A DNA stretch of 64,000 nt, from positions 186,001 to 250,000 of the forward strand of contig OZ025709.1 in NCBI GenBank assembly GCA_964019335.1, read 5' to 3'. The position numbers and the translations under genes were made by a program. The DNA comes from Diplonema japonicum. Taxonomy: Eukaryota > Protista > Euglenozoa: Diplonemea. This document shows, one piece after another, positions 17,997-42,657 of this stretch. The notes beneath the pieces are model-generated. The model had not been told where the DNA came from and ran no database searches. It saw only the letters and a program-made list of their open reading frames with translations. The first letter of the stretch is position 1; the number at the start of each line of letters is the position of its first letter.

Positions 17997-20873
17997 CTAA
18001 CACCTTTCGAAGTTTGCACTATGAATCACCGACCCCGATCGTTGTCGTGAACGTGAAGAACGCCTGTGTGCGTGTGTTGCAAAAAAAAAAAAAAAACTTT
18101 TTTTTTTCCCATACTTTTTCTTAGGGCTTTTCTTCTTCTTCCTTGCAGGGCTGGGGGTGTTCATATGTTTCAAACCAGTAACATGCGGAGAAGGCCGAGC
18201 ACGCAGGGGAGACTGGTAAGGAGGTGCAACGGGCAACGCAGCACCAGAGTCCCACGACGCCCTTTTACGTAACGAAGAGCAGGTGTGAAACTGGTGATGT
18301 GAATGCGGAACAGAACGAGACCGAGACCTCGAGACAGATCGGGAGGCGGACCTGGGCCTTGGAGAGGCTCTTCTAGGCGGAGACACATTCATGATTTTTT
18401 TGGGAGATTTCGTTCGTACGTCACGTTCCTTCTCGATGTCCAAAGATCTGATGAGGTGCTCAACAAGCTCCGTGTCTGTGAGCTGCCTTGAATCGAATCT
18501 AAACCGCACATTTCTCATGTCTTCTGTTGCAGCTCTGATGGAACAAATTCCCTCCACTGGAACACCGGCAACATGTGTCACCCGTCGCCCGACGAATTTC
18601 TCCCCACCACATACGCTCGCAGGCGCGCCTCTGACGACCTCTATCAAAATGTTCCCCCGCCACGTCATCCCCAATATTTCTCCTATTTTTTTGTGAACCA
18701 GCAACTCATCGTCCTTCCCGTCGTCGTCGTTGGTGTTGTTGTTCTTAAGAGGTGTTGTACTGTTGGATGGGACCCACTCTCTTGGGGAGTCCAACGCGGG
18801 TTCGGAATTCCATGCTGCGGGGATGTGTATGCTCTGGGTGCGCTGTTGCAGGACCTTTTCCTTTGGTTGCGAAAGGCTCGTCGCGGAACCAACAAGCGAC
18901 ACATCAGGAACAGCCATTGATGGTTGTTCCACTTGTCGCTCCTCCTTTTGCGTTATCGTAGCTGATGACGGAGTCAACGACACTTCCTTAGCTTGCGACA
19001 CGCTCGACGATTTTTCGATCAACAGGGGCGGTGACGTCCCTGGTAGGCTCGCGGAGGGAGGCGTGGCCGTTGCTTCACTAGGAGGCTGTGTTCTCAGCGG
19101 TGTCAGCTCCCCGACAGCGTCATTCTGCGGAATCCAATCCCTCGGCGAATCGATAAACGCCCGACCGTTCTGCTGATGAAAATGCAAATCGGGTGTTTTT
19201 TCCGAATACGGCGACCTCGGTAAATCAAGATTCGTGATTTTCTGATCGTACGCATCACGCGGCGAGGCAAGCGGTTTCTCGTTTCCACCACCAGTGTGAT
19301 AAGATCCAGGGTAGTGGCGACACACATTCGGCGGTCGTGAACGAAGGGGGGAATGCCATTCCGACTGGTTCGGAGGCAGCGGGGACAATTTCTGACTAAC
19401 ACTGCTGATCAAGCTGTCCCTCTCGCGAGGGGTGTGTAACGGCGTTCGTTCCGGCCTAACCGGCGGCGTGCTGTCCGCCCGCATAACAGACTTCACATCA
19501 TCATACGTTAATAAATTGGGCAGTAACCTCGACACCTCCCACCTGTTCTCTTTTGGGTAAAACACATAACACGTGCACTCTGATAAAACCGGAAGCACAA
19601 TAGCATCTTTCCCAGGAAGGTGTACAGCGGGCACCGACGACATAGGTGTGGGAGCTCCGTGAAGATCAGGTATGTGCGACCATTCCCCTCCACCAGTAAG
19701 GTTCAGCGTCCAACAATCGCCGAGCTGAGTAGAAGCCTGTTCACCAGACCATATGAAAAGCCCGCTGGAAAACGATGCTGCCGAGTGCAACGCGCGTGGG
19801 TAGGGTACGGTTAGTTCCGACGGTTTGTACGCCTTCTCCGCTGTGGTGTACTCGGAATGAGGAATCGGTTTGTACCCAAACGGCGTTTCGCTGCCAGAAC
19901 GAGATTCGATGACGACTACCTCCCCTGTCTCTTTTATCTGGTACCGCTTATTGAGGTCCTTCATCTCGAGAAGCTTGCTTCTTGGTAGGGTGTCACCCGG
20001 AACGATCTTCGCAGCGGGAATTGTTCGTGCGTAGTTTGCCGGGAACCATCCTTTTTCCTCGGGTCGTACGAACCCGCGGTACCATCCCTTCATTTTGTGC
20101 TGGATGTCTTTTCCAGATAAGACGGATATTATATCACCCTGAGCGATGGGAATTTGTTCGTTTCGCTTGTCGGTGGATGGTTTCGGGGTGAACGTGTGCA
20201 TGGCTTCCATGACTTCAACACGGTCGGAGATGTCCTCGTACGAGATGACCCGACCCTCCCCAGTGGTGACGTTGTAAAAATAAAGCTTGTTTGAGCTTTG
20301 TTCGCTTCCGTTGATTCCTCCAAACACGATTACATAAGCAGAGGCATCTGTTACCCAAGGGACCATAGATAGTCCCCATAACGGGCTAAAATTTGGGACG
20401 TCCGAAGCGGTCCAGATCAAGGTTTCAAGATCTAACATGTGAATTTTCGATGTGATTTGGGTGTCGCCAAGAGGGTAGCCGCCAAATACAAAAAGTTTTC
20501 CTTGAACAACTGAAGAGGCGTGATAGCATCGGCTTGGAGGGACTTGTCCAGTTGTGGATGTTAACCGCCATTCCATGGTGGATAGGTTCAGAACTGGGAG
20601 GCAGTACCGTTGTTCAGAAGTGACTACTTTAACCAAGCCTTGGACGATGTACATTTCACCCTTGTAGACATCTGCCGTGTGGTAGGCTTGTTCTGTTGGT
20701 GTTTCGCCTTTTGTTTCAACTTCTCTAATACCGCCTTCGCCTGTTGAAATGTTTATTAAGTACACGCTCTTTATCAGCGTTTTCAGATCCCGTCGCATGC
20801 CGCCGAAAACGACTACTTTCCCCTCCCATTCTACCCCGGAGTACCCCTCAAGCTGTAGCTCTTTTGGTGCCAT
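17997..20873 (-). CDS. Kelch-repeat protein with inserted SH3 domain, low-complexity middle and PDZ-like domain; join(18115..20873,17997..18063)
   Basis: Kelch motifs (VVFGG, PPSRCYHAS..LFVFGG, PRALHSA), SH3 (EAMHTF..QGDIISV..GWYRG..GWFPANY), PDZ-like LGMTWRG..GAPA..VGRRVTHVAGVPV; 51-nt intron near the 3' end. Confidence 0.85.
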   Translation of the reverse strand: MAPKELQLEGYSGVEWEGKVVVFGGMRRDLKTLIKSVYLINISTGEGGIREVETKGETPTEQAYHTADVYKGEMYIVQGLVKVVTSEQRYCLPVLNLSTMEWRLTSTTGQVPPSRCYHASSVVQGKLFVFGGYPLGDTQITSKIHMLDLETLIWTASDVPNFSPLWGLSMVPWVTDASAYVIVFGGINGSEQSSNKLYFYNVTTGEGRVISYEDISDRVEVMEAMHTFTPKPSTDKRNEQIPIAQGDIISVLSGKDIQHKMKGWYRGFVRPEEKGWFPANYARTIPAAKIVPGDTLPRSKLLEMKDLNKRYQIKETGEVVVIESRSGSETPFGYKPIPHSEYTTAEKAYKPSELTVPYPRALHSAASFSSGLFIWSGEQASTQLGDCWTLNLTGGGEWSHIPDLHGAPTPMSSVPAVHLPGKDAIVLPVLSECTCYVFYPKENRWEVSRLLPNLLTYDDVKSVMRADSTPPVRPERTPLHTPRERDSLISSVSQKLSPLPPNQSEWHSPLRSRPPNVCRHYPGSYHTGGGNEKPLASPRDAYDQKITNLDLPRSPYSEKTPDLHFHQQNGRAFIDSPRDWIPQNDAVGELTPLRTQPPSEATATPPSASLPGTSPPLLIEKSSSVSQAKEVSLTPSSATITQKEERQVEQPSMAVPDVSLVGSATSLSQPKEKVLQQRTQSIHIPAAWNSEPALDSPREWVPSNSTTPLKNNNTNDDDGKDDELLVHKKIGEILGMTWRGNILIEVVRGAPASVCGGEKFVGRRVTHVAGVPVEGICSIRAATEDMRNVRFRFDSRQLTDTELVEHLIRSLDIEKERDVRTKSPKKIMNVSPPRRASPRPRSASRSVSRSRSRSVPHSHHQFHTCSSLRKRASWDSGAALPVAPPYQSPLRARPSPHVTGLKHMNTPSPARKKKKSPKKKYGKKKSFFFFFATHAHRRSSRSRQRSGSVIHSANFERC
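18064..18114 (-). other. Predicted spliceosomal intron, 51 nt (GTATGG...CACAG), in frame
   Basis: Removes YGKKKSFFFFFATHAH homopolymer read-through. Donor is identical to those of the MMPL introns. Confidence 0.75.
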
Positions 20874-21190
20874 TTTCTTTTTTTTTTTTTTTTTTTTATT
20901 ATTTCTTTCTTATTGCATTGTTTTCTTCTTTTTTTTTCTCGAGAGAGGGGGGGGGGGGGGGGGGCTTTTTCCTGTGTTGAATTTTTAAAAAAAAAGGGGG
21001 GGTTTAAGTTTACGCGTTTGGTTTGGTTTTTCAAAAAAAAATATATATAAAGGGGGTATAAAAACGACATGAAAAATGTAAAAAAAGAGAGAGAGAGGGA
21101 AAAAAAAAAAAGAAATCGGGCAGTCAAAGGAAGGTTCTGCGGTTAAAGGTTAGTAAGAATGCAACAGAAAATAAAATAAAATAAAAAGGG

Positions 21191-21234
<44 letters not shown>

Positions 21235-21443
21235 GTGTGCTTTTTTTTTTGTTTTTTTTTTCTTGTTTAAAAAATTCTTTTTTTTTTTATATTTCTCTCT
21301 CTGGTTTCTTCCTTGCTCAAGGACAAGGGGGAATAAAATAAAAAAAATAAAAAAAAATAAAAAATAAAAAAAGATGAAAAGGAACGGCTTCGTCCCGGGA
21401 AACACTTTTCTTTCCCCCCCCCCTTCCCTTCTCCGCTTCTAGT

Positions 21444-21517
21444 TCACGCGTGTGTAGCCTCCCGAATAGTACTTTTCACTTTACTAGCCAAATGTTCAGA
21501 TGTCTGAGCGAGTTCCA

Positions 21518-21560
<43 letters not shown>

Positions 21561-24480
21561 CCTCCCCTTTTTCCCAAACCTTTGCGGCCTCAATCAGCTC
21601 CTTCAAAACCTTCTCCCGAATCTTGAGCGACTCTTCGTTTAAAGCATCGAGTTTCTCCAGTGGTTTCTCTGCTGCTGTACCGGTTGCCCTCCCCACCACA
21701 AGCTCCCCAACGGCCATATAAGTCGGTTTCTCTTCTGTCCCCGAACCCTCAAAACAAGTATTCACCCGTGTGAACACAACACGGGGCTTTTCACTAACTT
21801 TCGAATCCACCGTCCAAGTACATCCAACAATTTTAGAAACGGGAGAGGACGACGAGACAGGGAGAAGATCAGAAATCGAAGTCTCTGAAAGGTACCCGCT
21901 GCTGAGATCAGAACAAGCATCTTCGTCCGATTCATCTTTCTCAGCCGAAGCAGGTTTATCCTCGTCGCAAATTTCACATTTTGGCCGCCTATCTGCGTTG
22001 TAGTAAGTACAAGCTGGACAAGCCCAATGGTCGGCGGGGATGTGGGGCTTATCAGGAGCAGCTTCGTCATCTAAATCGGATCCAAACAAGTCGAATCCGA
22101 GAGACGAGGAGTCTGAACTCGCTTCGCACGTTTTTTCTACAGGTTTTTCCTCTCCTTTTTTTTTTTCTTCTTCTTCTTCGTCGTCATCGTCGTCGAACAG
22201 CCCTGCTCCATACACCTCGGACTCATCGTCGTAAGCGTCCGTTAAAATCCTCTCCTTAACCGTATCATCTTCCTCGGCAAGGTCTGCCCAGTCCATGAAC
22301 ATTTCGCTTCCAACGAGACCGCCCTCGCATTTTGGAACGCTGCCTTTTGTGGGATGTGTTGGTACACCGATTTTCCGGATTTCAGAACAGTGGACTTCCT
22401 CGGGAGAAGGAAGTGCTTCCGATCGTGTGAACCTAACCAAGTATCGGTTTGGCTTTGCGCAGCATTTCACGATGATTGCAGGATGGGCGGTCCCGTGGGT
22501 ATAACGCGCGTGAACTGCCTCGCCCGGTGAGAATTTTGGAAGAGCGGACGGTTTAGAACAGTCATCAGAATGAACTTCCGGCTCGTCAGACATTCGATGA
22601 GATGCTGATGAAATTACATCACCCGTGTCGAGGGCAACATGGTACTGAGAATGCAGCAACACGGACTTAACAACACCTGGATGGCACACCATCCCATCGT
22701 ATTCTACTAAAACCCTGTTCCCGGTGGACCACGGCTTCACCGGTTTCAACGTTTCTGTATCAGCGCATGTTATCCTAACGTTCTTTGGTGAAATGGATAC
22801 GGTGAGTCTTTTAGGGTCGCTTTCGAATATGACGCCGACGAGGCCTGATTTTTCGATGCGGTGTACGATGGCAGGGGCGAAATGGTGCTTTCCCTTCGGG
22901 ACAGCATGGACTTGATCCGCCGTGCAAAATTTTAGTTTTGTCCCGACGAAGCTGGTGCACCATGAAAGATTTTCCGGAGGGCATAACATTGTTTCCCCGT
23001 CGCATGTGGTGCATTGGTATAACCCTGAAGGGTTCAATCCTGTTGTCGTCCCTCGTTTACACGACGATTTTGAAATCCGGATAACGACATTCTGCTCGCC
23101 GTCTGATGGGGGAATCGTTTTCGTTTTTTCCGGTTTTGGTGAATCCACGGGTTTCGGTGGTACCACCGGTTCCGCGAAGTCGTCGCTTCCAGTGGTGAGG
23201 AATGGTGGGAGGGGTTTGTGTTCGGATAGAAAACCTTCCGGTTTATCCTTCCCCGCCATTTCCCACAAATCGCCGGTGAAAGATGTTTTGTCCGCATCGG
23301 TGTAAGTAGGCATGAATATGTACTTGCAATTGTTTTTCTCGCAAAATTTATCCATGTTGTCGACTAGCTTCTTGTTCGTTTTGTACTTCTCATGAAGGAC
23401 GATGAGATCGATGTTTTCTGCGAGACGGAGCTCTCCGTGGATTTGCACCTCTTTGTAATTGTGAACGACGTCGCTCTTATGCCACAAACGCATTCTGTTC
23501 GCGACTTCCAGAACCCTTTGCAACTCCTGATCAGAATATTTGTTCAACACATGTGCGTGATATTCACAAGAAGCGATCTGCGCGTCTGTACATGACGAAT
23601 CCTTGTCTGCGAAGGACGTCCTTAAACGGCATCCCTTCAACACGATATAACTATCACCGTAAGATGTCGCCGAGGATATCCCCCTTGGATCGTTAACTAT
23701 GTTGAGACATCCGTATTTTGGACGTTGGTGTGCAACTGCTTTTGAATAGTCTTTGTTGAAAATTCTGTCTTCCCAGCCGGCTCGTGAACCTGTTTCGGAA
23801 AAGTCTAAGGTCCCGCGGCTTATCTTTGTTTCGAATTGGTTACGGTAGTGTGTGTCTTTTAAAAACTTTTCCATTCGACCGTCGGCGTCGAAGGGGACAT
23901 GGATGATGATTGGTGCTTCGTCGCGGATCCACAAAAGTAGTTTTTGTAGGTGGTCTTCCGTCCATTTCGAGCTGGTTCCTTTGATGGACAGCTTGCAAAC
24001 TTTTTCCCGAAGGTTGTTCAGAACTTTTTCATGGCTTGCTTTTGCTTTTTTGACAAAGTTTGAGATAGCTTGTTTTTGAAGTGAGTCACAGTAGGTTTCC
24101 ACAGCTTCGAGCTCGTCGCGTGGTGGGAGGAAGAGTTTGGAGCGTTCGACTCTCGCTTTTTTTTTGCTGTCGAATCCAGCTGTTGGGTGTTCCTCGTATA
24201 GTTTTGAATGAAACGCGTGGCTGTCTGCAAAATACCCTTCATCCTCGTGAGGAGTTTCCTCTCCTTTGTTAAAAGTGCGCAGTGCAACTGTAAGCTCTGG
24301 ATCCACCACATCCATGAAACTCTCCTTTGCACCTCTAGAAACGCTTCCTAGGTCTGAGAAGGCGGCGTCATCGCGAAAAACCAATTTCCCGGCGCGAATT
24401 TTTTTCTGCTCTGCTTCGTTTTGCTCCCCTTTGCTGCACCCTATTACATACTCTTTCCATATGTCATCGAGGGATGTCAT
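21444..24480 (-). CDS. DUF3626-like domain + three Tudor/Agenet-like domains + NZF zinc finger (991 aa); join(21580..24480,21444..21518)
   Basis: YRNQFET, RPKYGCLN, YGDSYIVLK, YKEVQIHG (DUF3626 pattern); Tudor-like FSPGEAVHARY..HPAIIVK; WACPACTYYN..CEIC. Splicing replaces a poly-Lys tail with VELAQTSEHLASKVKSTIREATHA*. Confidence 0.8.
21519..21579 (-). other. Predicted spliceosomal intron, 61 nt (GTTTGG...poly(A)-AG)
   Basis: Phase-0 GT-AG pair around an A-run of about 40 nt; the spliced frame continues a helical, protein-like C-terminus. Confidence 0.8.
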
Positions 24481-24634
24481 GGTTGTTTTTTTTGTGTATT
24501 TTTTTTTTTTTTTTTTTTTTTTTAAAGTTTATTCTTTGTGTGTCAGAAATCGTCGTATGAGGGAAGGGTTTTCAAAAAAAAGAGAAAAAAAAAAGAGGGG
24601 AGATACTTCACAAGTGCGTTCAAGGGAGGGAAAA

Positions 24635-24672
<38 letters not shown>

Positions 24673-26201: not shown

Positions 26202-29200
26202 TTAAATCCTGCTGTTGTTATTATCAGTACCATAATCAGTCGCTTCCTTTTGGCGCATGCTGACATCGTAGGTCTCCGGGTCGTCTATTTTTTTTTTTTT
26301 TTTTTTTTTTTTTTATTTCACTCTTCGTCATTTTCTTCACTCACTAGGGGCCTCATTATTTAACGCGAAATGGCCATTATTTAACGCGAAACGGCCATTA
26401 TTTAACGCGAAATCGCCATTATTTAACTAGTTAAATAATGAGATTTTGCAGTTAAATAATGGCCCTTCAGAGTGAAAAAATGGGTCTTGTCGTGGAAAAA
26501 AATGCACCCAACCCCTTGAAAAATTTTTTTGGGGTGGGGGTATTTTGACTATTTTTGGCCATCTGAGGCCATTCCAGCCCTTAAAAGTGGGAATAAGTGC
26601 CTTACTTCCCCTTTAAATGCCACGGCGAAATAGCTACCCTGTATTACCTTAGGAAAATCCCCAAAAAGCTGACCTGCGTGAAAAAAAACAGCAGTGAAAG
26701 CAGTGAAGAGTGAGTGACTCAAATGACGAAGAGTGAAATAAAACGACTTACTTGCCGCCAAATGAGCCATTATTTAACACTCGTTACCCGTTTTTTTGCA
26801 CTCGGGCCCTGCGGGCCCTCGTGCAAAAAATTCGGGAACTCGAGTTAAATAATGACTCATTATTTGTTGGCAATAAATAGTTATTATTTCACTCTTCGTC
26901 ATTTTCTTCACTCACTAGGGGCCTCATTATTTAACGCGAAATGGCCATTATTTAACGCGAAACGGCCATTATTTAACGCGAAATCGCCATTATTTAACTA
27001 GTTAAATAATGAGATTTTGCAGTTAAATAATGGCCCTTCAGAGTGGAAAAATGAGTCTCGCCGTGGAAAAAAATGCACCCAACCCCTTGAAAAAATTTTT
27101 TGGGGTGGGCGTATTTTGACTATTTTTGGCCATCTGAGGCCATTCCAGCCCTTAAAAGTGGGAATAAGTGCCTTACTTCCACTTTAAATGCCACGGCAAA
27201 ATAGCAACCCCATATTACCTTAGGAAACTCCCCAAAAAGGCTGACCTGCGTGAAAAAAAAACAGCAGTGAAAGCAGTGAAGAGTGAGTGACTCAAATGAC
27301 GAAGAGTGAAATAAAACGACTTACTTGCCGCCAAATGAGTCATTATTTGTTGGCAATAAATAGTTATTTTTTTTTTAAAGTACTCCCCCTTCCCATACTC
27401 TCAAGAATCTCAACACTGCTTCTGGCCATTGCAGGCCACCAGTTGTACTTCCCGAAGGGAGCCATCATGGTCGGGACAAGAACCGTCTTCACCACAAGAA
27501 CGTCAAAGAGAAGCGCCCAGAACATCGCGAAGGAGATCTGGTTCAAAATGGGAAGCCTGGCGAACATGTGCCCGATAAAGCTCACCGCCAGAATACACCC
27601 GGACACGATGTTCATCCAACCCGTCCCGATCAAGGCCATCTTCGTCGCCTCCTTCGTCGTCAGCTGGTGGTAGTGGTACCAATCATGCGCAGTGCTGATC
27701 AGGAACAACTCGTGGCACATCGACAACCCAATAATCAAGGGAACCGTGATTATAAAAACAAAGTAATGAACAGCACCATCACCTCCCTCCTTCGTCACAA
27801 ACGTCTGAAGTGCACTAATATCAGTCCAGTCAAGCGCCCCATGGCAATACGTCAACGAGGTGAAGCCAAGCGCGAAGACAATCGTCAAAAACGTAGTGAA
27901 GACCGCTCTAAGCCCAACCATGACGGACTTGGTACCCAACAATATAACGAGGAACCCGATGAGAACGAACACAGGCGACATCCACGACCAAGCATCATTG
28001 ATCCTCTGCACGGCATCGTGCGAGTTAACAGCAGACCCCGTCATGTACACCTTGGCCCCTGTCCCGTTGTTCCGCGAGTTGAAGTCATTCTGGAACACCT
28101 TGAAAGCGCTCACAAAATCGTACCCCTCAGGGCCCATAGGGTCAATTTGTGTCTTCATCTGCACAATAGTTGCGGTCAAAAACAAATTCTGTCCTGTTGG
28201 GTCGGTCGTGTCAAATGAGAACCCGGGAACGGTCTGACCTTCCTTGGGGGAATACCCAAATACACTAACACCCCTCCAAGCACAAGATGGAGAGTAATCA
28301 GTTGGCATGGGAGGCCTCATTGCAGGCGGGAGGAGAGAGTTCCAAGCGAACCACAACCCGCACTCCCTCTGCGAGGAGGAGTTGAAGGACGTGCCCATGA
28401 AGTTGTACGCACCGATGACACCCTCCTTCGAGAAGCTCTTGAGCTCCGACAGCTCCGACATCATCCCCAACGCGATACTGTTGAACTGCATCGTCTCAAT
28501 ATCGTCAAACTGCGGCGTCAACATGAACACGGGCACGTTGAAAACAGGGTGGATGCTGTTCTCGGGGGGGAAGCCCATGATCTTGAACTGCGTTGCCGCA
28601 CCGTTGCCGTAGTCCTCGAAGAGCCTCTCCGCGTTGTTCGTGAAGGTGTCCCTCCTTGGGAAGTACACTTCCAGAGAGTCCGTCTGCTTGGTGTGGTTCA
28701 AGAGAACAACGCCGAACGGGATGACGAGGATGATGATGATGGCAACAATGATAGCGTTCTGGAAGGTCTTCATCTGCGTCACCGACGCGTACCTGTGCCA
28801 CAGGGTGTCCTCGAGGTCCTTGTTCAGGTTGGGGACGATTGATGCACGGCCGCCGTCGGTGGTAGCTGCCTGTTGTCCGCCAAGCCTTGACCTCAGTGCC
28901 ACTGTCTCCCTTTCGTTCACTCCGAACAATTTCGTCCTTTTCGTTGCAGCCTCGAAGAATTCCGGGAAGCACAGCAACACCGCAGGTACAAGCATCACCG
29001 CCGCAAGGAACGCAGCAAATCCGCAAACAAGTATAGCCCAACCAAGACCCTTGACCTGGTCAACGTCAACAAGAGCGATGACAAGCGAGCACAGTGCAAG
29101 GGTCAGCTGCGACAGGGTGATGGTGGTCCCTGCGGTGGACAGCATACGCTGCACGGCTTCCTTGCAGTCCTCGCCTTCAAGAAGCGCCTCACGGAACCTG

Positions 29201-30237
29201 TTCAACAGGAACAAACAGTGCCCCACGGGGAGACCCACAACAAGCGATATCATAACGGGTGTCACAATGACATTCATCAGCACGTCATTAGCGATCTCGG
29301 CAACAATGGCCATGGAGATCAGGGTGGTGGCGAGGATGGCGAGAATGGGGAGGATCATGAGACGGATGTTCCTGAGAACGATCATGGCGAAGATGAGCGA
29401 GAGGGGGATGGCGATACCGTCGGCGAGGAGGAGATCGACAACAACAGTGTCCAAAATCTCATCGACACCAGCAGCGATACTGAACGGCTCGGCCTTCATC
29501 TTAAGCGGCTCAAGGAACGGCTTCGACAGGTTGGAAACCCTCGCGTTCAACCAGTCAGAAAACTTCTTCTCAACATCCGGGATCCCAATGTTCTCACCCT
29601 GAATCACAATGTTGATGATGGTGGAACGGTAACCCTTGCTTCTCGGCGCACGGAGATATTCCCCTGCGACAGGATCAAACTGGTTCAGCGTCCAGAATGC
29701 GTCAAAACCAGAAATTGTCTTGTTTTCAGCGCACTGTGGAAGAAGTACCTCATAACCTTCATTACACCACTCAAGGTACGCATCCTGGCGGAGTGCGAGG
29801 GTGAAGGCAGCGGTACCAGCAGCGAGTAAACCTCTTTCTTGCCAGTCAGACGGAAGAGAGTCAGGGGGACCACCTGGCATAAGGTTCCACGGAACGTTTA
29901 AGTCGGTGATGGGGTCGGATTCGTTAGCTTTGTTCTCGTCTTCCCACTGGATGGCAACCATCAGTACCGCCTCGCCAACCCTCTCAGGGTAGTATTTCTT
30001 GATGAAATCGCGAGAGTCCTCAGCCCATGTTCCATCGGGAGGGTTCCACTCCAGGTTCGTGCGCCCTGTCAGCGTAATGGCCCAGTTTATCGACACACAC
30101 ACAGCAATAAGCCACGTGGCTACTACCACATACTTCACCACGCTCCTGTCCAAAAGATCAACATAGGTAGTACTCACGAACCCTGCCCCACCTGTTGTCG
30201 GCATTGCACCGCTTCTCCGGAGGTCATCTTGTGTCAT
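26202..30237 (-). CDS. MMPL/RND-superfamily multi-pass membrane protein, paralog 1 (973 aa); join(27399..30237,26202..26284)
   Basis: LFLLNRFREAL..AVQRMLSTAGTTITLS and DVLVVKTVLVP..GKYNWWP are MMPL-type motifs. Start MTQDDLRR after an A-tract aligns with paralog 2. Terminal exon NDPETYDVSMRQKEATDYGTDNNNSRI* joins in frame. Confidence 0.85.
26285..27398 (-). other. Predicted intron, 1114 nt (GTATGG...poly(A)-TAG): a 60-nt intron plus a 1054-bp insertion
   Basis: Phase 1 with the same donor as the paralog-2 intron. Subtracting the inserted dimer leaves 60 nt, the typical intron size in this window. Confidence 0.8.
26314..27367. mobile_element. Head-to-tail dimer (571 + 483 bp) of a non-autonomous element with terminal/subterminal IR and hairpin, tentatively Crypton-like
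   Basis: Perfect 20-bp IR TATTTCACTCTTCGTCATTT (26314) / AAATGACGAAGAGTGAAATA (26721); 21-bp tandem CATTATTTAACGCGAAANNGC; long hairpin 26768-26854 in unit 1 only; inserted in a T-run without a clear TSD. Confidence 0.7.
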
Positions 30238-32310: not shown

Positions 32311-35230
32311 TTAAACAACAGGGTTGGTCTGACTGTCCGTCGGTTGGAGGGCCACTTTTTTTTTATTTTTATTTTTTTATTTTTTTTTTTTTTTCTCGTT
32401 CATCCATACCTTCATCTCCTTCCTCTTCAACGGCCTCGGAAATCTCGTAGGGCGCGTTCCTGGCCATTGCAGGCCACCAGTTGTACTTCCCGAAGGGAGC
32501 CATCATGGTCGGGACAAGAACCGTCTTCACCACAAGAACGTCAAAGAGAAGCGCCCAGAACATCGCGAAGGAGATCTGGTTCAAAATGGGAAGCCTGGCG
32601 AACATGTGCCCGATAAAGCTCACCGCCAGAATACACCCGGACACGATGTTCATCCAACCCGTCCCGATCAAGGCCATCTTCGTCGCCTCCTTCGTCGTCA
32701 GCTGGTGGTAGTGGTACCAATCATGCGCAGTGCTGATCAGGAACAACTCGTGGCACATCGACAACCCAATAATCAAGGGAACCGTGATCACAAAAACAAG
32801 GTAATGAACACCACCATCGAAACTAGAAATAGCGTTCAAACCAGTCCAGTCAAGCGCCCCATGGCAATACGTCAACGAGGTGAAGCCAAGCGCGAAGACA
32901 ATCGTCAAAAACGTGGTGAAGACCGCTCTAAGCCCAACCATGACGGACTTGGTACCCAACAATATGACGACGAACCCGATGAGAACGAACACAGGCGACA
33001 TCCACGACCAAGCATCACTGACCCTCTGCACGGCATCCTTCGAGTACACTGGCATGCCTACCATGTAAAGATCAGGTTTGTTAGGGTCGTTTCTGAACTC
33101 GGTCTGAGTAGCCCTGAAGTTCTCGATGACATCTCTGCCCTTAACGCTGAGCGGGTCCACACGGGTGGAAACCGACAACCATGAAGCTGACACATTGAGG
33201 CTTGTCACGAGCGGGAGCACATTACTGCCATACGTGTTAGCAACAGCACCCCTCCACAAGCAGTTGTACTTACCGCCGAGAAGCGGGCTCGGATCAGGAC
33301 CCGGGTTGGGCCCCTGTCCTGTGATAAACAACACGTACCCTCCGAACCAGTTCGTGCAGACAGCCTGCGAGACTTCGTTCAGCGGTTGATCGTTGTAGTT
33401 CCACGCTCCTGTCAACAAGGCTGTTCTTCCGCCCTCTGTTCTGTTCATAGACTGTGTCAGTTCCCCCGACAGGTAGTTCCACGGAGAGTTCTCCGTACCC
33501 GTGGTGCTTAGGACAAACGCGCCATCCTTCGGGACCGCCGCGATCTTCATGGTCGAGACGGCGCCGATGCCGTACTGGGAGAAGAGCCTCTCCGCGGTTT
33601 TTGTGAAGGAGTCCCTCCTCGGGAGGTAGATGGTGAAGGAGTCGTTGGTGTCGGTGCCGTTGTTCAGAACAACGCCGAACGGGATGACGAGGATGATGAT
33701 GATGGCGACGATGATAGCGTTCTGGAAGGTCTTCATCTGCGTCACCGACGCGTACCTGTGCCACAGGGTGTCCTCGAGGTCCTTGTTCAACTGCGGGGCA
33801 ACGGACGCGTGCGCGTCTGTCCCGTACTGAGGGGTCTTTTGCATCCTGGAAGCGAGAGCGACTGTCTGCCTCTCGCTCACTCCGAACACAGCTGTTCTTT
33901 GTGTAGCCTGCTCGAAGTAGTCAGGGAAGCACAACAACACCGCAGGTACAAGCGAAACAGCAGCCAAGAACGCTACAACAACACAGATCAGCATGGCCCA
34001 ACCAAGACCCTCTACCTGGTCAACGTCAACAAGAGCGATAACGAACGAGCACAGTGCAAGGGTCAGCTGCGACAGGGTGATGGTGGTCCCTGCGGTGGAC
34101 AGCATACGCTGCACGGCTTCCTTGCAGTCCTCGCCTTCAAGAAGCGCCTCACGGAACCTGTTCAACAGGAACAAACAGTGCCCCACGGGGAGACCCACAA
34201 CAAGCGATATCATAACGGGTGTTACAATGACATTTGTCATAACATTCTCCGCAATTCCTGCAACAATGGCCATGGAGATCAGGGTGGTGGCGAGGATGGC
34301 GAGAATGGGGAGGATCATGAGACGGATGTTCCTGAGAACGATCATGGCGAAGATGAGCGAGAGGGGGATGGCGATACCGTCGGCGAGGAGGAGATCGACA
34401 ACAACAGTGTCCAGGATCTGATCGATACCTCCTTGGATGCTGAAGACGTCAACCTGCATGTTGATGGGCGTGAAGAACAAAGGACGCAGCTCGCCAAGCA
34501 CATCCTTCAAGTAATCGTTGAACTCCTTGTCCCTGTTGTCAAGACCGAGATTGTCGTTCTGGAAGTTGATCATAATAATGGACGAACGACCGCCATACTC
34601 TGCCATGGGCGCCTTCAACGTTGAAGCAGCTGTTTCATCATACTTGGCAATTGCCCAGTAAGCGGAGAAAAGTGTGATACGGTTGCCGCGATCGCCCTTA
34701 AGGCAGTTCGGAGAGAGGAACACCGCGGTCATCTGCGCGGTTTCAGCCGCTGAAACGTTACACCAATCTTGGTACACTCGCTGCCGGAGAGCTTCCGTGA
34801 AATCTTTGGTACCTGCCTCGGTGTGGGTAATACCACCGTATGTGTAGTTGTCCATGTTCAGAGTGTCAAAGGGCACGTTGACTTGAGTGATATCGGCAGC
34901 GTGATTGAGGTCCTCCCACTCCATAGCGATTAGGAAGACTGACATTCCGTTTTCTTGAGGGAAGTGTTTTACGAACTCGGATCTGTCCCCGGAGGAGGTG
35001 CTGTCCTTGGGCGGGTTCCACTTCAGGGTGGTTCTCCCTGGGAGCCTCCACGCCCATCCTGCGCAGATCCCAGTGACGATGAGCCATGTCGCCAGCATCG
35101 CGTATTTCACTGGCGCCATGTCAAGCAGGTTAACATACGAGGATGATACCACACCTGCTCCACCTGTCATAGGCATTCCACTTCTTCGGACACTGGGTGC
35201 CCTTGCCGGGCTGGTTTCTGGGGAAGTCAT
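32311..35230 (-). CDS. MMPL/RND-superfamily multi-pass membrane protein, paralog 2 (954 aa); join(32410..35230,32311..32354)
   Basis: Same motifs as paralog 1; spliced terminal exon VALQPTDSQTNPVV*. Confidence 0.88.
32355..32409 (-). other. Predicted intron, 55 nt (GTATGG...A-rich-AAG)
   Basis: Phase 1; removes MDEREKKKKIKK* read-through. Confidence 0.8.
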
Positions 35231-35624: not shown

Positions 35625-35659
<35 letters not shown>

Positions 35660-36501: not shown

Positions 36502-36542
<41 letters not shown>

Positions 36543-36552
36543 CTTCCTTCTT

Positions 36553-39500
36553 CTACTGCTTCTTACTGAAGTGAGATAGGTAGCAAGGGTTGCAAACACG
36601 AAGCGGGTCGTCCGGGTTCAGCCTTGCAAGTATCGTTTTCTGCGGCGAACATTCAGCACAAACTATGGCGCAACACGACCAACAGGACTTCTTGGGCCGC
36701 AAGATAGAGAATCTTGAAGAGCAAACGTAACAAGACACAGAGTGCGCCTCATCAGGGGGCGCATGCTCCGGGTTCTGCAACATGTCCGCAGCAATAGTCA
36801 TTGTAGCATTTCTCAGAGTGTCATAACACCTGGGGCACACTTTCCCCTTCACACCGGGTGAAAGGTAGTACTCTGTACTGGTGCACTGCCTGCAGTGTAG
36901 AAACCCGCACCCTTTGCAATGCGTTGATTTGTTCAGTTTTGTGAAGCTTTTGCTGCAGTACTGGCAACCCGACGTGCTCTGTTTCGTTGCTAGCTGTGGT
37001 ACCCCTGCTAGCATTCCGTCAAGGGCACCAGCACCAGTTTCACGATGGTGGTCTCTAGCAAGACGGGTGATATCTGCTACCCATCCGTCACGGTCGCCAG
37101 CTTCTGCGCCTCCTTGTAAAGGTTTTGCGACGAAACTCTGTACGGTGTTCATTATTGTAAAGCTGTCCCTGTCTTCGTTGAACGAGGCCTTTGCGTGGAG
37201 CAACGGGTACACCCGTTTGAAGTACAGCTTCCCGAACGCCATCTCCTTGCAGCAGAGAAGGATATCCGAGAAGAGGAAAAACCGAAGCTTTCTCCAATCG
37301 GTCTTCCCCTGTTTCAACAGCAGCCCGGACCGCAACAACTTCCTCCCGGGCTTTGTGATAATAGGTTTGTTGGGCCCGACAAACCGTTCCTGCAAATTGT
37401 GTATCATAAACTCATGCTCGCGATGCTCCGGCTGGTAATCATGGTCAAGGTAGGACCCTGTCCCAAGTGTGACGGTGTCGTCGAAGGAAGTGTTTGTCCC
37501 ATGGGGGGATGACTCCCTGCCTTCTAAAAGGTACGAGGAGACCTTTCTACGGACCATGCTGTCGGTTCTGTTCCATGATCGCTTGAAGGCCATCATGGTG
37601 TCGTCGAGAGTGTCGGTGCCCTGCAGGTCTCCTCCATTGGCCATGGATGTCATCGTGTTGTTGAGAGACTGCCCTATTTGTGTTTCCCCATCTTCCATGA
37701 GACGTGGTGTTGCAAGCGATCCCATCTTCTCCGCTCTTTGTGTTGTCCGGGTCTCGTTGTTATACTGTATTTCCGTGCGTGCCTCGGGGCTGTCGTGCTG
37801 TCTGTTTAAAAGCTGTTCTCTCTCGGCGGCTAGGCCTTCAAAACATATGTTGCAGACCTGAACCATCGCTTTCTCGTCGATATGCGGTAAATAAAACTTA
37901 TGCAGCGAGCATTCCCTGCATATGACACACCCGCAATGATAACAGTGATGCCGTCTTCTTAACAGATTGAACACCTTGTCGCAGACCATGCATGATGTGG
38001 CTGATTTGGTGTCGACCCAGACCGGTGCCAATGGTTGGAGTAGCAACGCAGGGTTTTCCCGGCGGATGGCGTCGGACGCTGCGAGCACCGCTGTCGCCCA
38101 TTCAATTTTTATCTCGGGGGTGGGGGCGGACACGATGAAGCTGACCTTCGGCGATTTAATCATCCACGCGTTCTTAAGATTCGACTGGTCCTCCATGTCC
38201 TGTAGATCAACCTGTTCCACCGCTATGACGCTTTTGCACTTGTGGGACGACGCTAGCGTGTGGATCAGAACATCGTTGAAGAGGTAGAACCGGTGTGGTT
38301 TCTTCGAACCGTCCTTTAGTACCTTTGTCAGAAGACCCGATTTCAGGACTTTTCTCCCGTCTTGGAGTAGTTTGAACTGCGCGACGTCTCCGTCGAAGAT
38401 GATCTGGGCCGCGAGCTCCTTCAGCTTCTCGTAGTTGTGCCGCATTGTTATGGACTGGTCGACCACCTTGGCAAAGCTCTGTACCCTGGCAATGCCTTCC
38501 GCGACTCTTTGCGCCAGCGGGCCGTTGTGTGTGTCTTTGCACGGCAACAGTTTCAACGTTTGCTGGAGTAGCAGGGAGTACCGCATCATTCTCTGGATCG
38601 GTGTGATGAGAAGGTCGGAGAGGTCCAGCCCTAGTGTGTCGCCCGACGCTTGCATTTCGTCGCAAATCTTGTTGAACCAAACCTTCGTTTTTAATTTTTT
38701 ATGTGATGCAAGCGAATCTTCGAAATTGTTGACATATTGAGTATAAGCCGATCGCATGATGGGGACAACGAGTTGAAGGAGCTCTCCGATGTCTGACGAG
38801 TCTTCCAGAATTGAAAGTCCCAAGGGTTTGCAGAATTGATCTTTCGATAGCCCGCGGACCTTCTGCCCATTGGTTATGATCCTGAAGATGGAGCTGGCTT
38901 CCTCCTCAATGAAGTTCAAAGATATCGCAAACACCGTGAACTCGTCTTGGTCGATGAGACCGTTACGGTCGTTGTCTATGGTGTCGAAGACAGCTCGGGC
39001 CTCGCCGCGCCTCATCACCGCCTTACACCATCGGGTGAACAGCATATCGGCGGTGATATTGATCAGTTCCACGATATTTATGAATCCGTCTGAGTCGGAA
39101 TCGACTTGTTGGAAAAGCCTTGCGGTGGCTTCTTTTGAAAAAAGAATTACTTTTCTTGAGAACGCCCAGAACTCCGACTTTGAGACCTGCGAGTCATTGT
39201 TCGTGTCGAGAACCTGGAACACCTCCCTCGCACCACCACGGGCTGCAATTTGATCTTTGAAAACCTTCATTAAAAGCTGCAGCTCATCAACAGATCGTCG
39301 CTTTGCTAATATCTCTGCGAATACGGTTTCGGGTTCCAAGGGGGAGTACGTGCTGTGGCCGTACCAATCAATGATCCAGCCAGCGGCTGCAATACGGTTT
39401 TGGTAGTCGACATGCTTTGTTAAAACGCTTAACACTGTGGTGTGGATTCGAAGCAGCGACGGGACATTTCCGAACAGCACGGCTGTCTCCGTGGCCTTGG

Positions 39501-40734
39501 TGTCGTCGCGGACCGCCAACGGGTGGATCATTGCTTGGTACTGTGAAATGATACCCAGCTGTGTCACGTAAGTCTTTTCAGTTTGAACAAATTCCGCAGT
39601 GGCGAGAGACATTTGCCCGTCCTGCGTGACGGGTTCGTGATGCCGTACCCGCCATCTTCTAAGCAGCTGAACGATTTGATGGAAGTCGGTTTGGTGAGTC
39701 CGTCTGTATTTTCTTGAGAACCACCCGGACTCGACGGCGATCCTGACAATTTTCCAGCACTCCATTCCTGTCAAAACGCGTCTCGAATTCTTCTTGGCCG
39801 CCAGTACCGTTTTGATAAACCGTTTCCGATCGGTGTGAGTTTTGACCACGTGGTACCCCTTGTGCGTCATACCCGTTCGAATGTTCCGAAGGTTCTTTTT
39901 TAAAAACTTCCACCGCCTCCCCGCGGTTGTGAGCGCTTCGTCGCTTGAGTCAGAATCTTCGTTACTACTGTCGGAGAAGTCATCATCGCTGTTCTTTTCA
40001 ACAGGTTTGACCTGGATGTCGGGTACTGGGACGGAAAGAGGAGGCGGTGCGATCGGTTTAGGAATTGGAGCTGAGGAACCCCACACTGGAGTTGATGTGG
40101 TTTCAACACTTGGAACAACGTTTAGATCGGTGAACGACACCCGCCTTTGCCGTGGGGACAGCGATGTTGGAGATTCCGGCATCAACAAAGCGTTCGACGA
40201 ATTATTGTTGATTTTAAACACCGACGTCACGAGCGACAGAACAGAGCTTTCCGGGGCGCGTAAAGGGGTGGGTACAGATGGTCGGGCAGGGGGTGGTTCC
40301 TCTCGTGTGCACCATTGAGGTACATCGATTTCGCCACCAACATCAAGCTCAATAGTGAATATACCTTTACCAGGGTTTCGTTTAAGTATGGTTCCTTCTG
40401 AACCGGGCATTGCTGTGACATTCCCGTCACTTCCTGACACGGAGTGGAGGATGGTGACTCTGCTTCGTCCGACTCTGATACCGTTCCTGTTGCCTCCGGA
40501 TCCTTTTCCTCTGTGCACGCCGACCGTGTGGGTCTTGTCGTGTTTTTCGATGGGAGGGGCGCCGCGGAGGCGGCCTTTGAACGATCGTTTCTCGACCCCG
40601 AAGTGCGGTTCGCCTTCTATCGTTGCCAAGGGGAACATGCTCTTGCTCGGCCGCATGGACTTTGACGCGAGCATCCATGCGGCCTCGTCGACGTGGACGG
40701 GCCGCCCTCCAGCTGAGAAAGAAGTTGTCGCCAT
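36553..40734 (-). CDS. FGD-like RhoGEF: DH (split by EF-hands)-PH-FYVE-PH-FYVE-FYVE
   Basis: EFVQTEKTYV, LFGNV and LLITPIQRMMRYSLLL (DH); DTNNDSQVSKSE, DSDSDGFINIVE, DNDRNGLIDQDE (EF-hands); FYLFNDVL and FFLFSDIL (PH); RRRHHCYHCG and two degenerate FYVE domains. Confidence 0.9.
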   Translation of the reverse strand: MATTSFSAGGRPVHVDEAAWMLASKSMRPSKSMFPLATIEGEPHFGVEKRSFKGRLRGAPPIEKHDKTHTVGVHRGKGSGGNRNGIRVGRSRVTILHSVSGSDGNVTAMPGSEGTILKRNPGKGIFTIELDVGGEIDVPQWCTREEPPPARPSVPTPLRAPESSVLSLVTSVFKINNNSSNALLMPESPTSLSPRQRRVSFTDLNVVPSVETTSTPVWGSSAPIPKPIAPPPLSVPVPDIQVKPVEKNSDDDFSDSSNEDSDSSDEALTTAGRRWKFLKKNLRNIRTGMTHKGYHVVKTHTDRKRFIKTVLAAKKNSRRVLTGMECWKIVRIAVESGWFSRKYRRTHQTDFHQIVQLLRRWRVRHHEPVTQDGQMSLATAEFVQTEKTYVTQLGIISQYQAMIHPLAVRDDTKATETAVLFGNVPSLLRIHTTVLSVLTKHVDYQNRIAAAGWIIDWYGHSTYSPLEPETVFAEILAKRRSVDELQLLMKVFKDQIAARGGAREVFQVLDTNNDSQVSKSEFWAFSRKVILFSKEATARLFQQVDSDSDGFINIVELINITADMLFTRWCKAVMRRGEARAVFDTIDNDRNGLIDQDEFTVFAISLNFIEEEASSIFRIITNGQKVRGLSKDQFCKPLGLSILEDSSDIGELLQLVVPIMRSAYTQYVNNFEDSLASHKKLKTKVWFNKICDEMQASGDTLGLDLSDLLITPIQRMMRYSLLLQQTLKLLPCKDTHNGPLAQRVAEGIARVQSFAKVVDQSITMRHNYEKLKELAAQIIFDGDVAQFKLLQDGRKVLKSGLLTKVLKDGSKKPHRFYLFNDVLIHTLASSHKCKSVIAVEQVDLQDMEDQSNLKNAWMIKSPKVSFIVSAPTPEIKIEWATAVLAASDAIRRENPALLLQPLAPVWVDTKSATSCMVCDKVFNLLRRRHHCYHCGCVICRECSLHKFYLPHIDEKAMVQVCNICFEGLAAEREQLLNRQHDSPEARTEIQYNNETRTTQRAEKMGSLATPRLMEDGETQIGQSLNNTMTSMANGGDLQGTDTLDDTMMAFKRSWNRTDSMVRRKVSSYLLEGRESSPHGTNTSFDDTVTLGTGSYLDHDYQPEHREHEFMIHNLQERFVGPNKPIITKPGRKLLRSGLLLKQGKTDWRKLRFFLFSDILLCCKEMAFGKLYFKRVYPLLHAKASFNEDRDSFTIMNTVQSFVAKPLQGGAEAGDRDGWVADITRLARDHHRETGAGALDGMLAGVPQLATKQSTSGCQYCSKSFTKLNKSTHCKGCGFLHCRQCTSTEYYLSPGVKGKVCPRCYDTLRNATMTIAADMLQNPEHAPPDEAHSVSCYVCSSRFSILRPKKSCWSCCAIVCAECSPQKTILARLNPDDPLRVCNPCYLSHFSKKQ

Positions 40735-40778
40735 TTGTTTTTTCATTCACATTTTTTTTTTTTTTTCTTGTTTGTTTT

Positions 40779-40809
<31 letters not shown>

Positions 40810-40810
40810 A

Positions 40811-41276: not shown

Positions 41277-41695
41277 TTAATTCAAGTTTCTGAACAAGAA
41301 AAAAAAATTTCAGTCAGTATGCCGGCAGGAGGGCCGAAATTTTTTTGCCATGACAGAAATGGGCAGGTGTCCGCAGGGCACTTGGTACTTCCTGCGTGGC
41401 CATTGTGCACTGCAGATGGGAAGGTGTGAATTCTGAATACTTTCTGGAAATCATCCGGTGGGTCTTTCTCAGGGAAATCTAAGATTTTCTTATTCTTGTA
41501 GAAATAATAGACTGCGTTTAGCTCCTAGGCTGACGGTCCAAATAAAAAAAAAAAGGAAAAAAAAAAAAAAAGAGAAAAAAAAAAAAAAAAAAGGGAATTG
41601 GTACACTTGTCAAGAAGAAGGAAATGTGATGTCTTACTGAAACAACTAGGAACAAAAACAACAAAAAGAGAAGAAAAAAAAAAAGAGAAAAGGAC

Positions 41696-41772
41696 TTACT
41701 CCTGCTTCCACGACTTGCGGGTCTTCCTGGTGGTCAAACGGTTGAGCCTCAGGGCCTTGGCAACCATAGCCT

Positions 41773-41806
<34 letters not shown>

Positions 41807-42117
41807 CTTGAGAAAAAAAAGCATACCGTCTTCAGGTCCTTGCGGCCCTTGGTCTTCAGACCGCGGGACTTCTTCACGCTCCTGGTGAAGGACTTCTTGC
41901 CCCTGGTCACGACGATGCCGGCGGCGGAAAGCTCCATACCAGTGGCGTTCTTGTGGGCCACACCACTGTACTTGAAGGTGCTCTTGGCGGTGAGGTTCAA
42001 GGGCTCGGCGGAGAGAGCGATCCTGTTGGCACCACGGCCGATCCTCTGCTTCCTCAGGAAGGCGTTGTTACCCTTCACGATCCTCCAGATAAGGTCAGAC
42101 GAAGCCTGGGCCGACAT
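41696..42117 (-). CDS. RPL28: 60S ribosomal protein L28e, copy 1 (121 aa); join(41827..42117,41696..41770)
   Basis: SSDLIWRIVKGNNAFLRK..SAEPLNLTAKSTFKYSG..RKDLK. A 56-nt intron (41771-41826, GTATGC...poly(A)-CAG) restores AMVAKALRL...KQE*. Confidence 0.92.
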
Positions 42118-42244
42118 TTTTTTTTTTTCTCTTTTCTTCTTTTTTTTTCCTTTTTTTTTGTTTCCCCAGGTTCCGATGAACAAGCAAAAAAAAAAAAAAA
42201 AATAAATATGAAGAAAAAAAAATTCTGATCACAAGACGACCTGT

Positions 42245-42657
42245 TTACTCCTGCTTCCACGACTTGCGGGTCTTCCTGGTGGTCAGGCGGTTGAGCCTCA
42301 GGGCCTTGGCAACCATAGCCTGGGGTGTTTGTGACAGTTATGTAAAAAATAATAAATGGTTCATACCGTCTTCAGGTCCTTGCGGCCCTTGGTCTTCAGA
42401 CCGCGGGACTTCTTCACGCTCCTTGTGAAGGACTTCTTGCCCCTGGTCACGACGATGCCGGCGGCGGAGAGCTCCATACCAGTGGCGTTCTTGTGGGCCA
42501 CACCACTGTACTTGAAGGTGCTCTTGGCGGTGAGGTTCAAGGGCTCGGCGGAGAGAGCGATCCTGTTGGCACCACGGCCGATCCTCTGCTTCCTCAGGAA
42601 GGCGTTGTTACCCTTCACGATCCTCCAGATAAGGTCAGACGAAGCCTGGGCCGACAT
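42245..42657 (-). CDS. RPL28: 60S ribosomal protein L28e, copy 2 (121 aa); join(42367..42657,42245..42319)
   Basis: Same protein; 47-nt intron 42320-42366 (GTATGA...CCCCAG) at the identical position. Confidence 0.92.

What the first reader, a model, noticed from the sequence alone, without database searches (positions are those of the whole stretch)
17997..42657. Mini-introns sit just before the stop codon of otherwise intronless genes
Seen: six of seven predicted GT-AG introns leave only 44-83 coding nt downstream (Kelch 67, DUF3626 75, MMPL1 83, MMPL2 44, RPL28 75 twice). Four of these genes have about 2.8-2.9 kb of unbroken ORF upstream. Sizes are tightly 47-61 nt (MMPL1 is 60 nt after removing an insertion). 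Established: intron-poor eukaryotes usually keep 5'-biased introns because RT-mediated loss removes 3' ones, so this is the reverse. Inference: a terminal intron may be kept to couple cis-splicing to 3'-end formation or downstream trans-splicing in a polycistron, or to switch C-termini. Caveat: the paralog pairs reduce this to about four independent positions.
Basis: partly seen in the sequence, partly recalled or inferred. Interest (0 to 1): 0.8.

Follow-up and report, generated by a model that had tools for sequence, protein, structure and literature searches.

The report
Introns parked just before stop codons
In this stretch of the marine protist Diplonema japonicum, six genes carry their only intron 44-83 bases before the stop codon, the reverse of the usual front-loaded pattern, and these introns are likely old survivors left at the gene edge after the rest were erased; whether the whole genome does this is untested.

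Summary
The window is Diplonema japonicum nuclear DNA. All six introns lie at the stated places on the minus strand. The predicted spliced proteins match database proteins across every junction: RPL28 and Kelch exactly, both MMPLs at all but one residue, DUF3626 over its last 880 residues. One RPL28 junction is seen in sequencing contigs; the other RPL28 copy is not separately shown. The introns themselves are ordinary D. japonicum GT-AG introns (PMC12621601). Their position is not ordinary: 6 of 8 predicted introns (4 of 6 independent sites) lie within 83 nt of the stop, P about 4e-4 under uniform placement, a post-hoc test on one window. The RPL28 intron recurs in another diplonemid genome. 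Best reading: survivors of mRNA-templated intron loss. A 3' bias is published for the ciliate Fabrea salina; I found none for diplonemids, but a key supplement was unreadable. No genome-wide test was possible. The scan had not noted this elsewhere.

The parts
17997..20873 (-). Kelch-repeat gene, 941 aa, two exons; last exon 67 nt
18064..18114 (-). 51-nt phase-2 intron, in frame and without a stop, spliced in the transcript-derived protein
   Evidence: spliced translation = P0035; unspliced 958-aa form not in collection
21444..24480 (-). DUF3626 / RanBP-zinc-finger gene, 991 aa; last exon 75 nt
21519..21579 (-). 61-nt phase-0 intron, GTTTGG donor, pure A run before AG
   Evidence: P0047 carries the spliced C-terminus
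26202..30237 (-). MMPL-family transporter gene 1, 973 aa; last exon 83 nt
26285..27398 (-). 1114-nt phase-1 intron, enlarged by a repeat insertion
   Evidence: P0011 matches the spliced end
26310..27372 (.). two tandem copies (spacing about 572 nt, about 97% alike) of a high-copy repeat with internal inverted repeats, inside the MMPL1 intron
   Evidence: contig depth 98,589 versus 20-120 on flanking genes in X3
32311..35230 (-). MMPL-family transporter gene 2, 954 aa; last exon 44 nt
32355..32409 (-). 55-nt phase-1 intron, A-rich
   Evidence: P0009 matches the spliced end
36553..40734 (-). FYVE/RhoGEF gene, 4.2-kb CDS with no intron (internal control)
   Evidence: X8 contigs tile 36556-40739 with 0 gaps
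41696..42117 (-). RPL28 (eL28) copy b, 121 aa; last exon 75 nt
41771..41826 (-). 56-nt phase-0 intron; junction inferred, not separately seen
   Evidence: same site as copy a
42245..42657 (-). RPL28 (eL28) copy a, 121 aa; last exon 75 nt
42320..42366 (-). 47-nt phase-0 intron
   Evidence: 47-nt skip in runs X8 and X1; unspliced contig in X7
42688..42690 (-). likely spliced-leader trans-splice acceptor (CAG), 30 nt before the RPL28a ATG
   Evidence: 24-nt loose end in X1 at 42688, CAG context; the label 'spliced leader' is recalled, not tested
61290..61340 (-). predicted 51-nt intron 458 nt before the stop of the 232-aa gene (counter-example, unverified, in frame)
   Evidence: sequence only
61414..61464 (-). 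predicted 51-nt intron 531 nt before the stop of the 232-aa gene (counter-example, unverified)
   Evidence: sequence only

Best explanation
These are real, ordinary spliceosomal introns of Diplonema japonicum that sit just before the stop codon, and they are likely old survivors of a process that erased introns further upstream by recombination with reverse-transcribed spliced mRNA. Shown: the introns, their removal, their clustering in this window, and an A or U run of 8 or more starting 0-86 nt after each of the six stops. Inferred: cDNA synthesis would often start at those runs (internal priming or poly(A) fold-back), so the cDNA edge would lie just past the stop; an intron within about 100 nt of that edge would have too short a homology arm to be converted away, while everything upstream would be swept clean. 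On this reading the position is a by-product of how introns are lost, not a processing signal.
For: Clustering: 4 of 6 independent sites within 83 nt of the stop, P = 4.1e-4 given gene lengths, 2.9e-5 against pooled CDS, 0.009 by a threshold-free Fisher test that includes both counter-examples. Donor-like words do not cluster there: 1 of 28 unused ones is within 100 nt of a stop. Age: ENA protein P0008 from another diplonemid genome (55% identical) reads into a 70-nt intron at the same codon and phase and then out of frame through exon 2 (20 of 27 residues compatible, 0 of 500 shuffles); exon 2 holds the conserved eL28 last helix, so it is not recruited UTR. Both MMPL paralogs have a phase-1 terminal intron and their duplication predates D. 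japonicum / D. ambulator (SH-aLRT 100, quick tree). A related ENA ORF (P0016) runs to the homologous C-terminus uninterrupted, consistent with a loss. Anchor is the stop, not the next gene. Precedent: 3'-terminal introns often escape mRNA-mediated loss and self-primed RT is one proposed cause (PMC2395259, passages); P. papillatum has over 2000 RT-domain proteins (PMC11613528, passages).
Against: No loss of an upstream intron was observed in any of these genes; their former presence is assumed. Outside diplonemids the MMPL hits were distant (23-27% identity) and, where named, bacterial, so that gene may have arrived intron-free and its intron would be a gain. Post-stop homopolymer runs are just as common in intronless genes (8 of 11 within 87 nt), so they do not discriminate. 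If cDNA starts at the true poly(A) tail and 3' UTRs are long (median about 800 nt in P. papillatum, PMC10161547), the edge would not be at the stop. MMPL1 and MMPL2 introns lie 7 and 16 codons past the last shared motif, so their homology is uncertain. The shuffle test on the second ENA RPL28 copy (P0006) was not significant (413 of 500), and P0013 has three donor-compatible spots in its last 60 residues, so its intron is only suggestive. One window, chosen after the pattern was seen.
Confidence: 0.37

Rival explanations
1. Local fluke. The introns are real but the genome as a whole has no strong 3' bias; a few old terminal introns and two tandem duplications happen to share one window.
For: Only four independent terminal sites, one of them (RPL28) in a 366-nt CDS; two predicted introns in the 5' half of another gene; P rises to 0.012 with a 200-nt threshold; post-hoc choice. 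D. japonicum has multi-intron genes (eight introns in three tested genes, PMC12621601) and P. papillatum genes reach 20 introns (PMC10161547).
Against: Three unrelated 2.8-3.0 kb genes all fall in the last 3% (P = 2.3e-5); 28 kb of further CDS (11 genes minus none with an intron) adds no internal intron candidate that was confirmed; a 995-aa ENA ORF from another diplonemid (P0013) looks like the same one-long-exon anatomy.
Confidence: 0.28
2. Functional retention. A stop-proximal intron is kept because U1/spliceosome or exon-junction factors placed there help define the last exon, 3'-end formation or mRNA fate in a polycistronic, trans-spliced pre-mRNA.
For: The narrow 44-83 nt band (SD 12 nt); the RPL28 intron persists in both tandem copies although their exons differ at only 4 of 366 nt and their introns are unrelated, and in another genus; 4 of 6 terminal introns have 90% or more A before AG whereas both 5'-half candidates are pyrimidine-rich; all genes are co-oriented and a likely SL acceptor is seen.
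Against: 11 of 18 genes have no intron, three of them confirmed by exact transcript-derived proteins and one by contig tiling; distance to the next ATG varies tenfold; kinetoplastids run the same polycistronic processing with three cis introns per genome (PMC11613528); the A-rich acceptor is species-wide (PMC12621601).
Confidence: 0.18
3. Tolerance filter. Introns are gained or kept mainly where failed splicing is cheap, in the last 15-28 codons, because the unspliced mRNA still gives a nearly full-length protein.
For: Unspliced products are 958 vs 941, 994 vs 991, 957 vs 973 and 953 vs 954 aa for the four long genes; their tails align poorly between species; acceptors lack a pyrimidine tract and 0 of 8 introns have YTRAY; it would also cover a gain in a horizontally acquired MMPL.
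Against: RPL28 retention removes or scrambles a conserved helix (98 aa for copy a); diplonemids keep UPF1, 2 and 3 (PMC11888146, passage), so upstream errors can be cleared by NMD; no retained isoform was found among the proteins returned.
Confidence: 0.17

Closest known systems
Canonical GT-AG introns of Diplonema japonicum (Thakur et al. 2025, PMC12621601; parts 1-5 of 8 of the text read, supplements not available)
   Same: GTATG donor, A-rich instead of pyrimidine-rich 3' end, short length (published median 41 nt), rare YTRAY branch motif. These six are members.
   Different: That paper does not report position within genes ('stop codon', 'last exon', 'terminal exon', 'UTR' have 0 occurrences in the main text).
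3'-enriched intron landscape of the ciliate Fabrea salina, and both-ends enrichment in Entodinium caudatum (PMC13685798, passages read)
   Same: Intron-poor protist with introns piled toward the 3' end, attributed to preferential loss of 5' or central introns.
   Different: Those are genome-wide results in ciliates with 15-nt introns (Fabrea); here one window, 47-61 nt introns, a polycistronic SL trans-splicing euglenozoan, and an absolute 44-83 nt band before the stop.
Internal intron loss sparing the 3'-terminal intron in Cryptococcus; self-primed reverse transcription model (PMC2395259, passages read)
   Same: mRNA-templated loss that leaves the last intron in place is the mechanism proposed here.
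   Different: Cryptococcus is intron-rich and still loses more toward the 3' end; the authors favour meiotic recombination over self-priming; losses were observed there and are only inferred here.
Paradiplonema (Diplonema) papillatum nuclear gene structure (Valach et al. 2023, PMC10161547; sections 7 and 9 and passages read)
   Same: Co-oriented gene clusters, SL trans-splicing, GT-AG introns, transposons inside introns.
   Different: More introns (41% of genes, 1.6 per gene) and longer ones; no positional bias stated in the main text. Additional file 1, section 4 on introns was too large to read and may bear on this.

Membership tests
Canonical U2-type introns of Diplonemidae | GT...AG ends | tested here: met
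   6 of 6
Canonical U2-type introns of Diplonemidae | GTATG donor consensus | tested here: met
   5 of 6; DUF3626 has GTTTGG
Canonical U2-type introns of Diplonemidae | A-rich tract before the acceptor (D. japonicum trait) | tested here: met
   4 of 6 have 90% or more A in the last 20 nt; the other two 30-40%
Canonical U2-type introns of Diplonemidae | removed from the mRNA | tested here: met
   5 distinct proteins match across the junction; RPL28a junction in contigs; RPL28b not separately shown
Canonical U2-type introns of Diplonemidae | excised by the U2 spliceosome as a lariat | not testable with these tools
   inferred from PMC12621601
Non-canonical euglenozoan introns (Hemistasiidae, euglenids) | non GT-AG ends | tested here: not met
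   all ends are GT-AG
3'-biased intron landscape (Fabrea salina type) | genome-wide enrichment of introns at 3' ends | not testable with these tools
   no whole genome held; met only within the window
3'-biased intron landscape (Fabrea salina type) | [quoted passage not shown] | not tested
   no orthologous gene structures could be fetched (searches found nothing)
RT-mediated internal intron loss | exact loss of introns in orthologs with the terminal one spared | tested here: inconclusive
   shared terminal RPL28 intron in P0008; P0016 lacks the terminal MMPL intron, which is a terminal absence, not an internal one
Alternative C-terminus switch by intron retention | both spliced and retained forms expressed | tested here: inconclusive
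   only spliced ends among returned proteins; unspliced Kelch absent; assemblies drop rare forms

The most novel reading that the evidence does not exclude
Diplonemidae keep a dedicated class of stop-proximal introns, one per gene, 45-85 nt before the stop, retained across genera because splicing there marks the end of the coding region for 3'-end formation or mRNA surveillance in polycistronic transcripts: a last stage of intron loss on the way to the nearly intron-free kinetoplastid state.
Probability: 0.15. Interest if true: 0.82.

Novelty: new variant of a known kind. Interest (0 to 1): 0.52.

Why it matters
Intron-poor eukaryotes usually keep 5' introns, and that pattern is a main argument for reverse-transcription-mediated loss. 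A stop-anchored 3' pile-up in the sister group of the almost intron-free kinetoplastids would give a second, independent exception besides Fabrea salina and a direct test of whether cDNA edge geometry or RNA-processing function decides which introns survive. Kostygov et al. state that they could not determine the polarity of loss in kinetoplastids (PMC11613528). The test needs only the existing genome and RNA-seq. In practice, ORF-based gene calls in diplonemid genomes will give near-full-length proteins with wrong C-termini (P0006, P0008, probably P0013), which also matters for C-terminal tagging.

Tried and rejected
No whole genome was held, so no genome-wide histogram. The look-up of sequencing runs listed no holder on record as RNA; X8 is treated as RNA-like only because it skips the intron where X3 and X7 do not. 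The second read-laying run, meant for the Kelch and DUF3626 junctions, returned nothing, so these rest on protein matches alone. In one search the joint table showed 15 of 101 rows, mostly from the repeat, so the MMPL and RPL28b junctions were not visible; that is not absence. Searches for diplonemid genomic DNA found nothing: RPL28 alignment in metagenome, genome and viral contigs and a repeat word in metagenome contigs. Exact look-up of 10 ORFs found 3; six misses in presumed intronless genes are uninformative (one residue or another start is enough) and the seventh was the unspliced Kelch. The Atlas gave no usable hit for exon 3 of the 232-aa gene, so its two introns stay unverified. A donor-like site at 22213 followed by an A run inside DUF3626 was rejected as an intron because P0047 keeps it. 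My shuffle statistic did not support P0006. The careful MMPL tree did not finish; the quick tree is used, and it has long bacterial branches. I recall that animal RPL28 has its last intron at the homologous codon, which would make this intron very ancient; one search found no paper and it is untested. Paper searches found no report of intron position bias in diplonemids; supplements of PMC12621601, Additional file 1 of PMC10161547, the figure in Additional file 9 of PMC11613528 and bioRxiv supplements could not be read. Rejected: sequencing or assembly artefact, non-canonical introns, and recruitment of UTR as exon 2 for RPL28.
Full report
Identity. All long ORFs lie on the minus strand, separated by A- and T-run-rich spacers. 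RPL28 exon 1 hits a 121-aa protein at 100% whose accessions are EukProt Diplonema japonicum; the next hits are D. ambulator, Rhynchopus euleeides and Lacrimia lanifica. The window is therefore nuclear DNA of a diplonemid, a group with co-oriented gene clusters and SL trans-splicing (PMC10161547, section 9). A 24-nt loose end in run X1 joins at a CAG 30 nt before the RPL28a start; I recognise it as the 3' end of the spliced leader from recall.

Observation. Splicing is supported independently of the prediction. The joined exons give RPL28 identical to P0001, MMPL1 identical to P0011 at 972 of 973 residues, MMPL2 identical to P0009 at 953 of 954 (names), Kelch identical to P0035 at 941 of 941, and DUF3626 identical to P0047 over its last 880 residues. 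P0047 comes from a library without names and has a frameshifted N-terminus. The Kelch case matters because its intron is in frame without a stop; the unspliced 958-aa form is not in the collection. Contigs of X8 and X1 skip exactly 47 nt at RPL28a, with GT-AG ends on the minus strand, while an X7 contig crosses the intron without a gap. RPL28b is not separately shown. Because the long proteins match end to end (DUF3626 over 880 of 991 residues), those genes have no other intron in the matched part.

The introns are ordinary for the species. Thakur et al. report 10,131 RNA-supported introns in D. japonicum, 98.3% GT-AG, median 41 nt, GTATG donors, an A-rich tract before the acceptor and YTRAY in only 13.9% (PMC12621601). 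Here 5 of 6 have GTATG, 4 of 6 have at least 90% A in the last 20 nt and 0 of 8 have YTRAY. The MMPL1 intron is 1114 nt because two tandem copies of a high-copy repeat sit in it; it is still spliced.

Is the position more than chance? I tabulated 18 complete genes, 39,333 nt of CDS and 8 predicted introns, 0.20 per kb; a partial gene at the window edge and transposon remnants were left out. Two predicted introns in a 232-aa gene lie 458 and 531 nt from the stop and are unverified; I kept them as counter-examples. Collapsing paralogs gives 6 independent sites, 4 within 83 nt of the stop: P = 4.1e-4 given each gene's length, 2.9e-5 against pooled CDS, 1.2e-2 with a 200-nt threshold, and 0.009 by Fisher's method without a threshold. 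The three unrelated long genes alone give 2.3e-5. Unused donor-like words are spread through the CDS, 1 of 28 within 100 nt of a stop. These tests are post hoc and cover about 0.1% of a 62.3-Mb genome (size from the PMC13598402 abstract). Of the 11 genes without a predicted intron, three match transcript-derived proteins exactly and one is tiled by X8 contigs without gaps; the other seven are intronless by open frame only.

Age. Two ENA proteins from a 2.07-Mb contig of another diplonemid are RPL28 ORFs that diverge from the family right after the same codon, with residues compatible with a phase-0 GTATG. P0008 continues out of frame through exon 2 after an implied 70-nt intron (20 of 27 residues compatible with the R. 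euleeides tail, 0 of 500 shuffles); P0006 implies 50 nt but was not significant by that statistic. Exon 2 encodes the conserved last helix of eL28. The MMPL duplication predates the split from D. ambulator, both copies have a phase-1 terminal intron, though 7 and 16 codons past the last shared motif, and ENA protein P0013 ends in a donor-compatible spot followed by six phenylalanines, suggestive of a T-rich intron. P0016 runs to the homologous end unbroken. These points are read from proteins; I could not fetch the DNA.

Mechanism. The distance to the stop is tight (mean 70, SD 12 nt) and the distance to the next ATG is not (202-2117 nt). Most genes of the same cluster do without an intron. 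That argues against a needed role in cutting the polycistron, although poly(A) sites are unmapped. No second C-terminus was seen; P0027 pairs the MMPL2 start with the MMPL1 end, as expected from assembly across stretches where the paralogs are 100% identical. I favour edge-protected loss (0.37): cDNA from spliced mRNA converts genes to intronless form, and an intron close to the cDNA edge escapes. All six genes have an A or T run of 8 or more within 86 nt after the stop that could set that edge, but so do 8 of 11 intronless genes. Sparing of the 3'-terminal intron is documented in Cryptococcus (PMC2395259) and P. papillatum has over 2000 RT-domain proteins (PMC11613528). The losses themselves are inferred, and a possibly bacterial origin of MMPL would make its intron a gain. 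Rivals: local fluke (0.28), functional retention (0.18), tolerance of mis-splicing near the C-terminus (0.17).

Comparison and novelty. The introns are members of the known D. japonicum class. A 3'-enriched landscape is published for the ciliate Fabrea salina, and both-ends enrichment for Entodinium caudatum (PMC13685798, passages), so the pattern is not categorically new. Searches and the texts read gave no such statement for diplonemids, but the intron supplement of the P. papillatum genome paper and the supplements of PMC12621601 could not be read. Papers seen: PMC12621601 parts 1-5 of 8; PMC10161547 sections 7, 9, passages and one supplement part; PMC11888146 abstract and passages; passages only of PMC11613528, PMC13685798, PMC2395259, PMC2586383, PMC13598402, PMC12817076, PMC12699882, PMC8061765, PMC9004412 and two bioRxiv preprints (10.64898/2026.09.29.755400, 10.64898/2026.01.29.702485). 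Earlier scan notes held nothing on this pattern.

Verdict. A real and locally significant stop-proximal intron cluster in a diplonemid, with at least one intron shared across genera; genome-wide extent and cause remain open and are cheap to test. New variant of a known kind, interest 0.52.

Noticed in passing
window 41696-42657: The tandem RPL28 copies differ at 4 of 366 coding nt but have unrelated introns and flanks; another diplonemid contig also has two copies with different intron read-throughs.
   Followed up: partly
window 27399-30237 and 32410-35230: MMPL paralogs alternate between about 45% and 100% DNA identity; the last identical patch ends shortly before each terminal intron, suggesting gene conversion. 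Closest non-diplonemid hits are distant and, where named, bacterial.
   Followed up: partly
window 54847-56215: 1.37-kb element with 43-nt terminal inverted repeats and 31-nt subterminal repeat arrays, next to a tRNA-Asn(GTT) gene at 54655-54727.
   Followed up: no
window 61904-63210: Element with inverted arrays of 31-nt repeats around a plus-strand 210-codon frame with a CCHC-like motif, preceded by a T-run and AG; probably a decayed DNA transposon.
   Followed up: no
window 40810-41290: High-copy repeat between RPL28b and the FYVE gene (contig depth about 24,000 in X3).
   Followed up: no
window 21447-22131, protein P0049: A 431-aa database protein joins an unrelated N-terminus (RWD-like by eye) to the last 208 residues of DUF3626, with the spliced end, at a D/E-rich low-complexity stretch; probably an assembly chimera.
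   Followed up: no
window 61290-61464: The two predicted 5'-half introns have pyrimidine-rich 3' ends (75-95%), unlike four of the six terminal ones; the first could instead be a trans-splice acceptor.
   Followed up: partly
window 46172-53947: 2591-aa ORF without a predicted intron, built from many degenerate internal repeats, ending in a FYVE-like finger.
   Followed up: no
window 1744-8204: Tandem pair of LVIVD-repeat surface-type proteins, 96% identical in DNA, with a C-terminal hydrophobic segment.
   Followed up: no
window 12950-13200 and 480-640: A non-coding-looking sequence recurs at both places (seen by eye).
   Followed up: no
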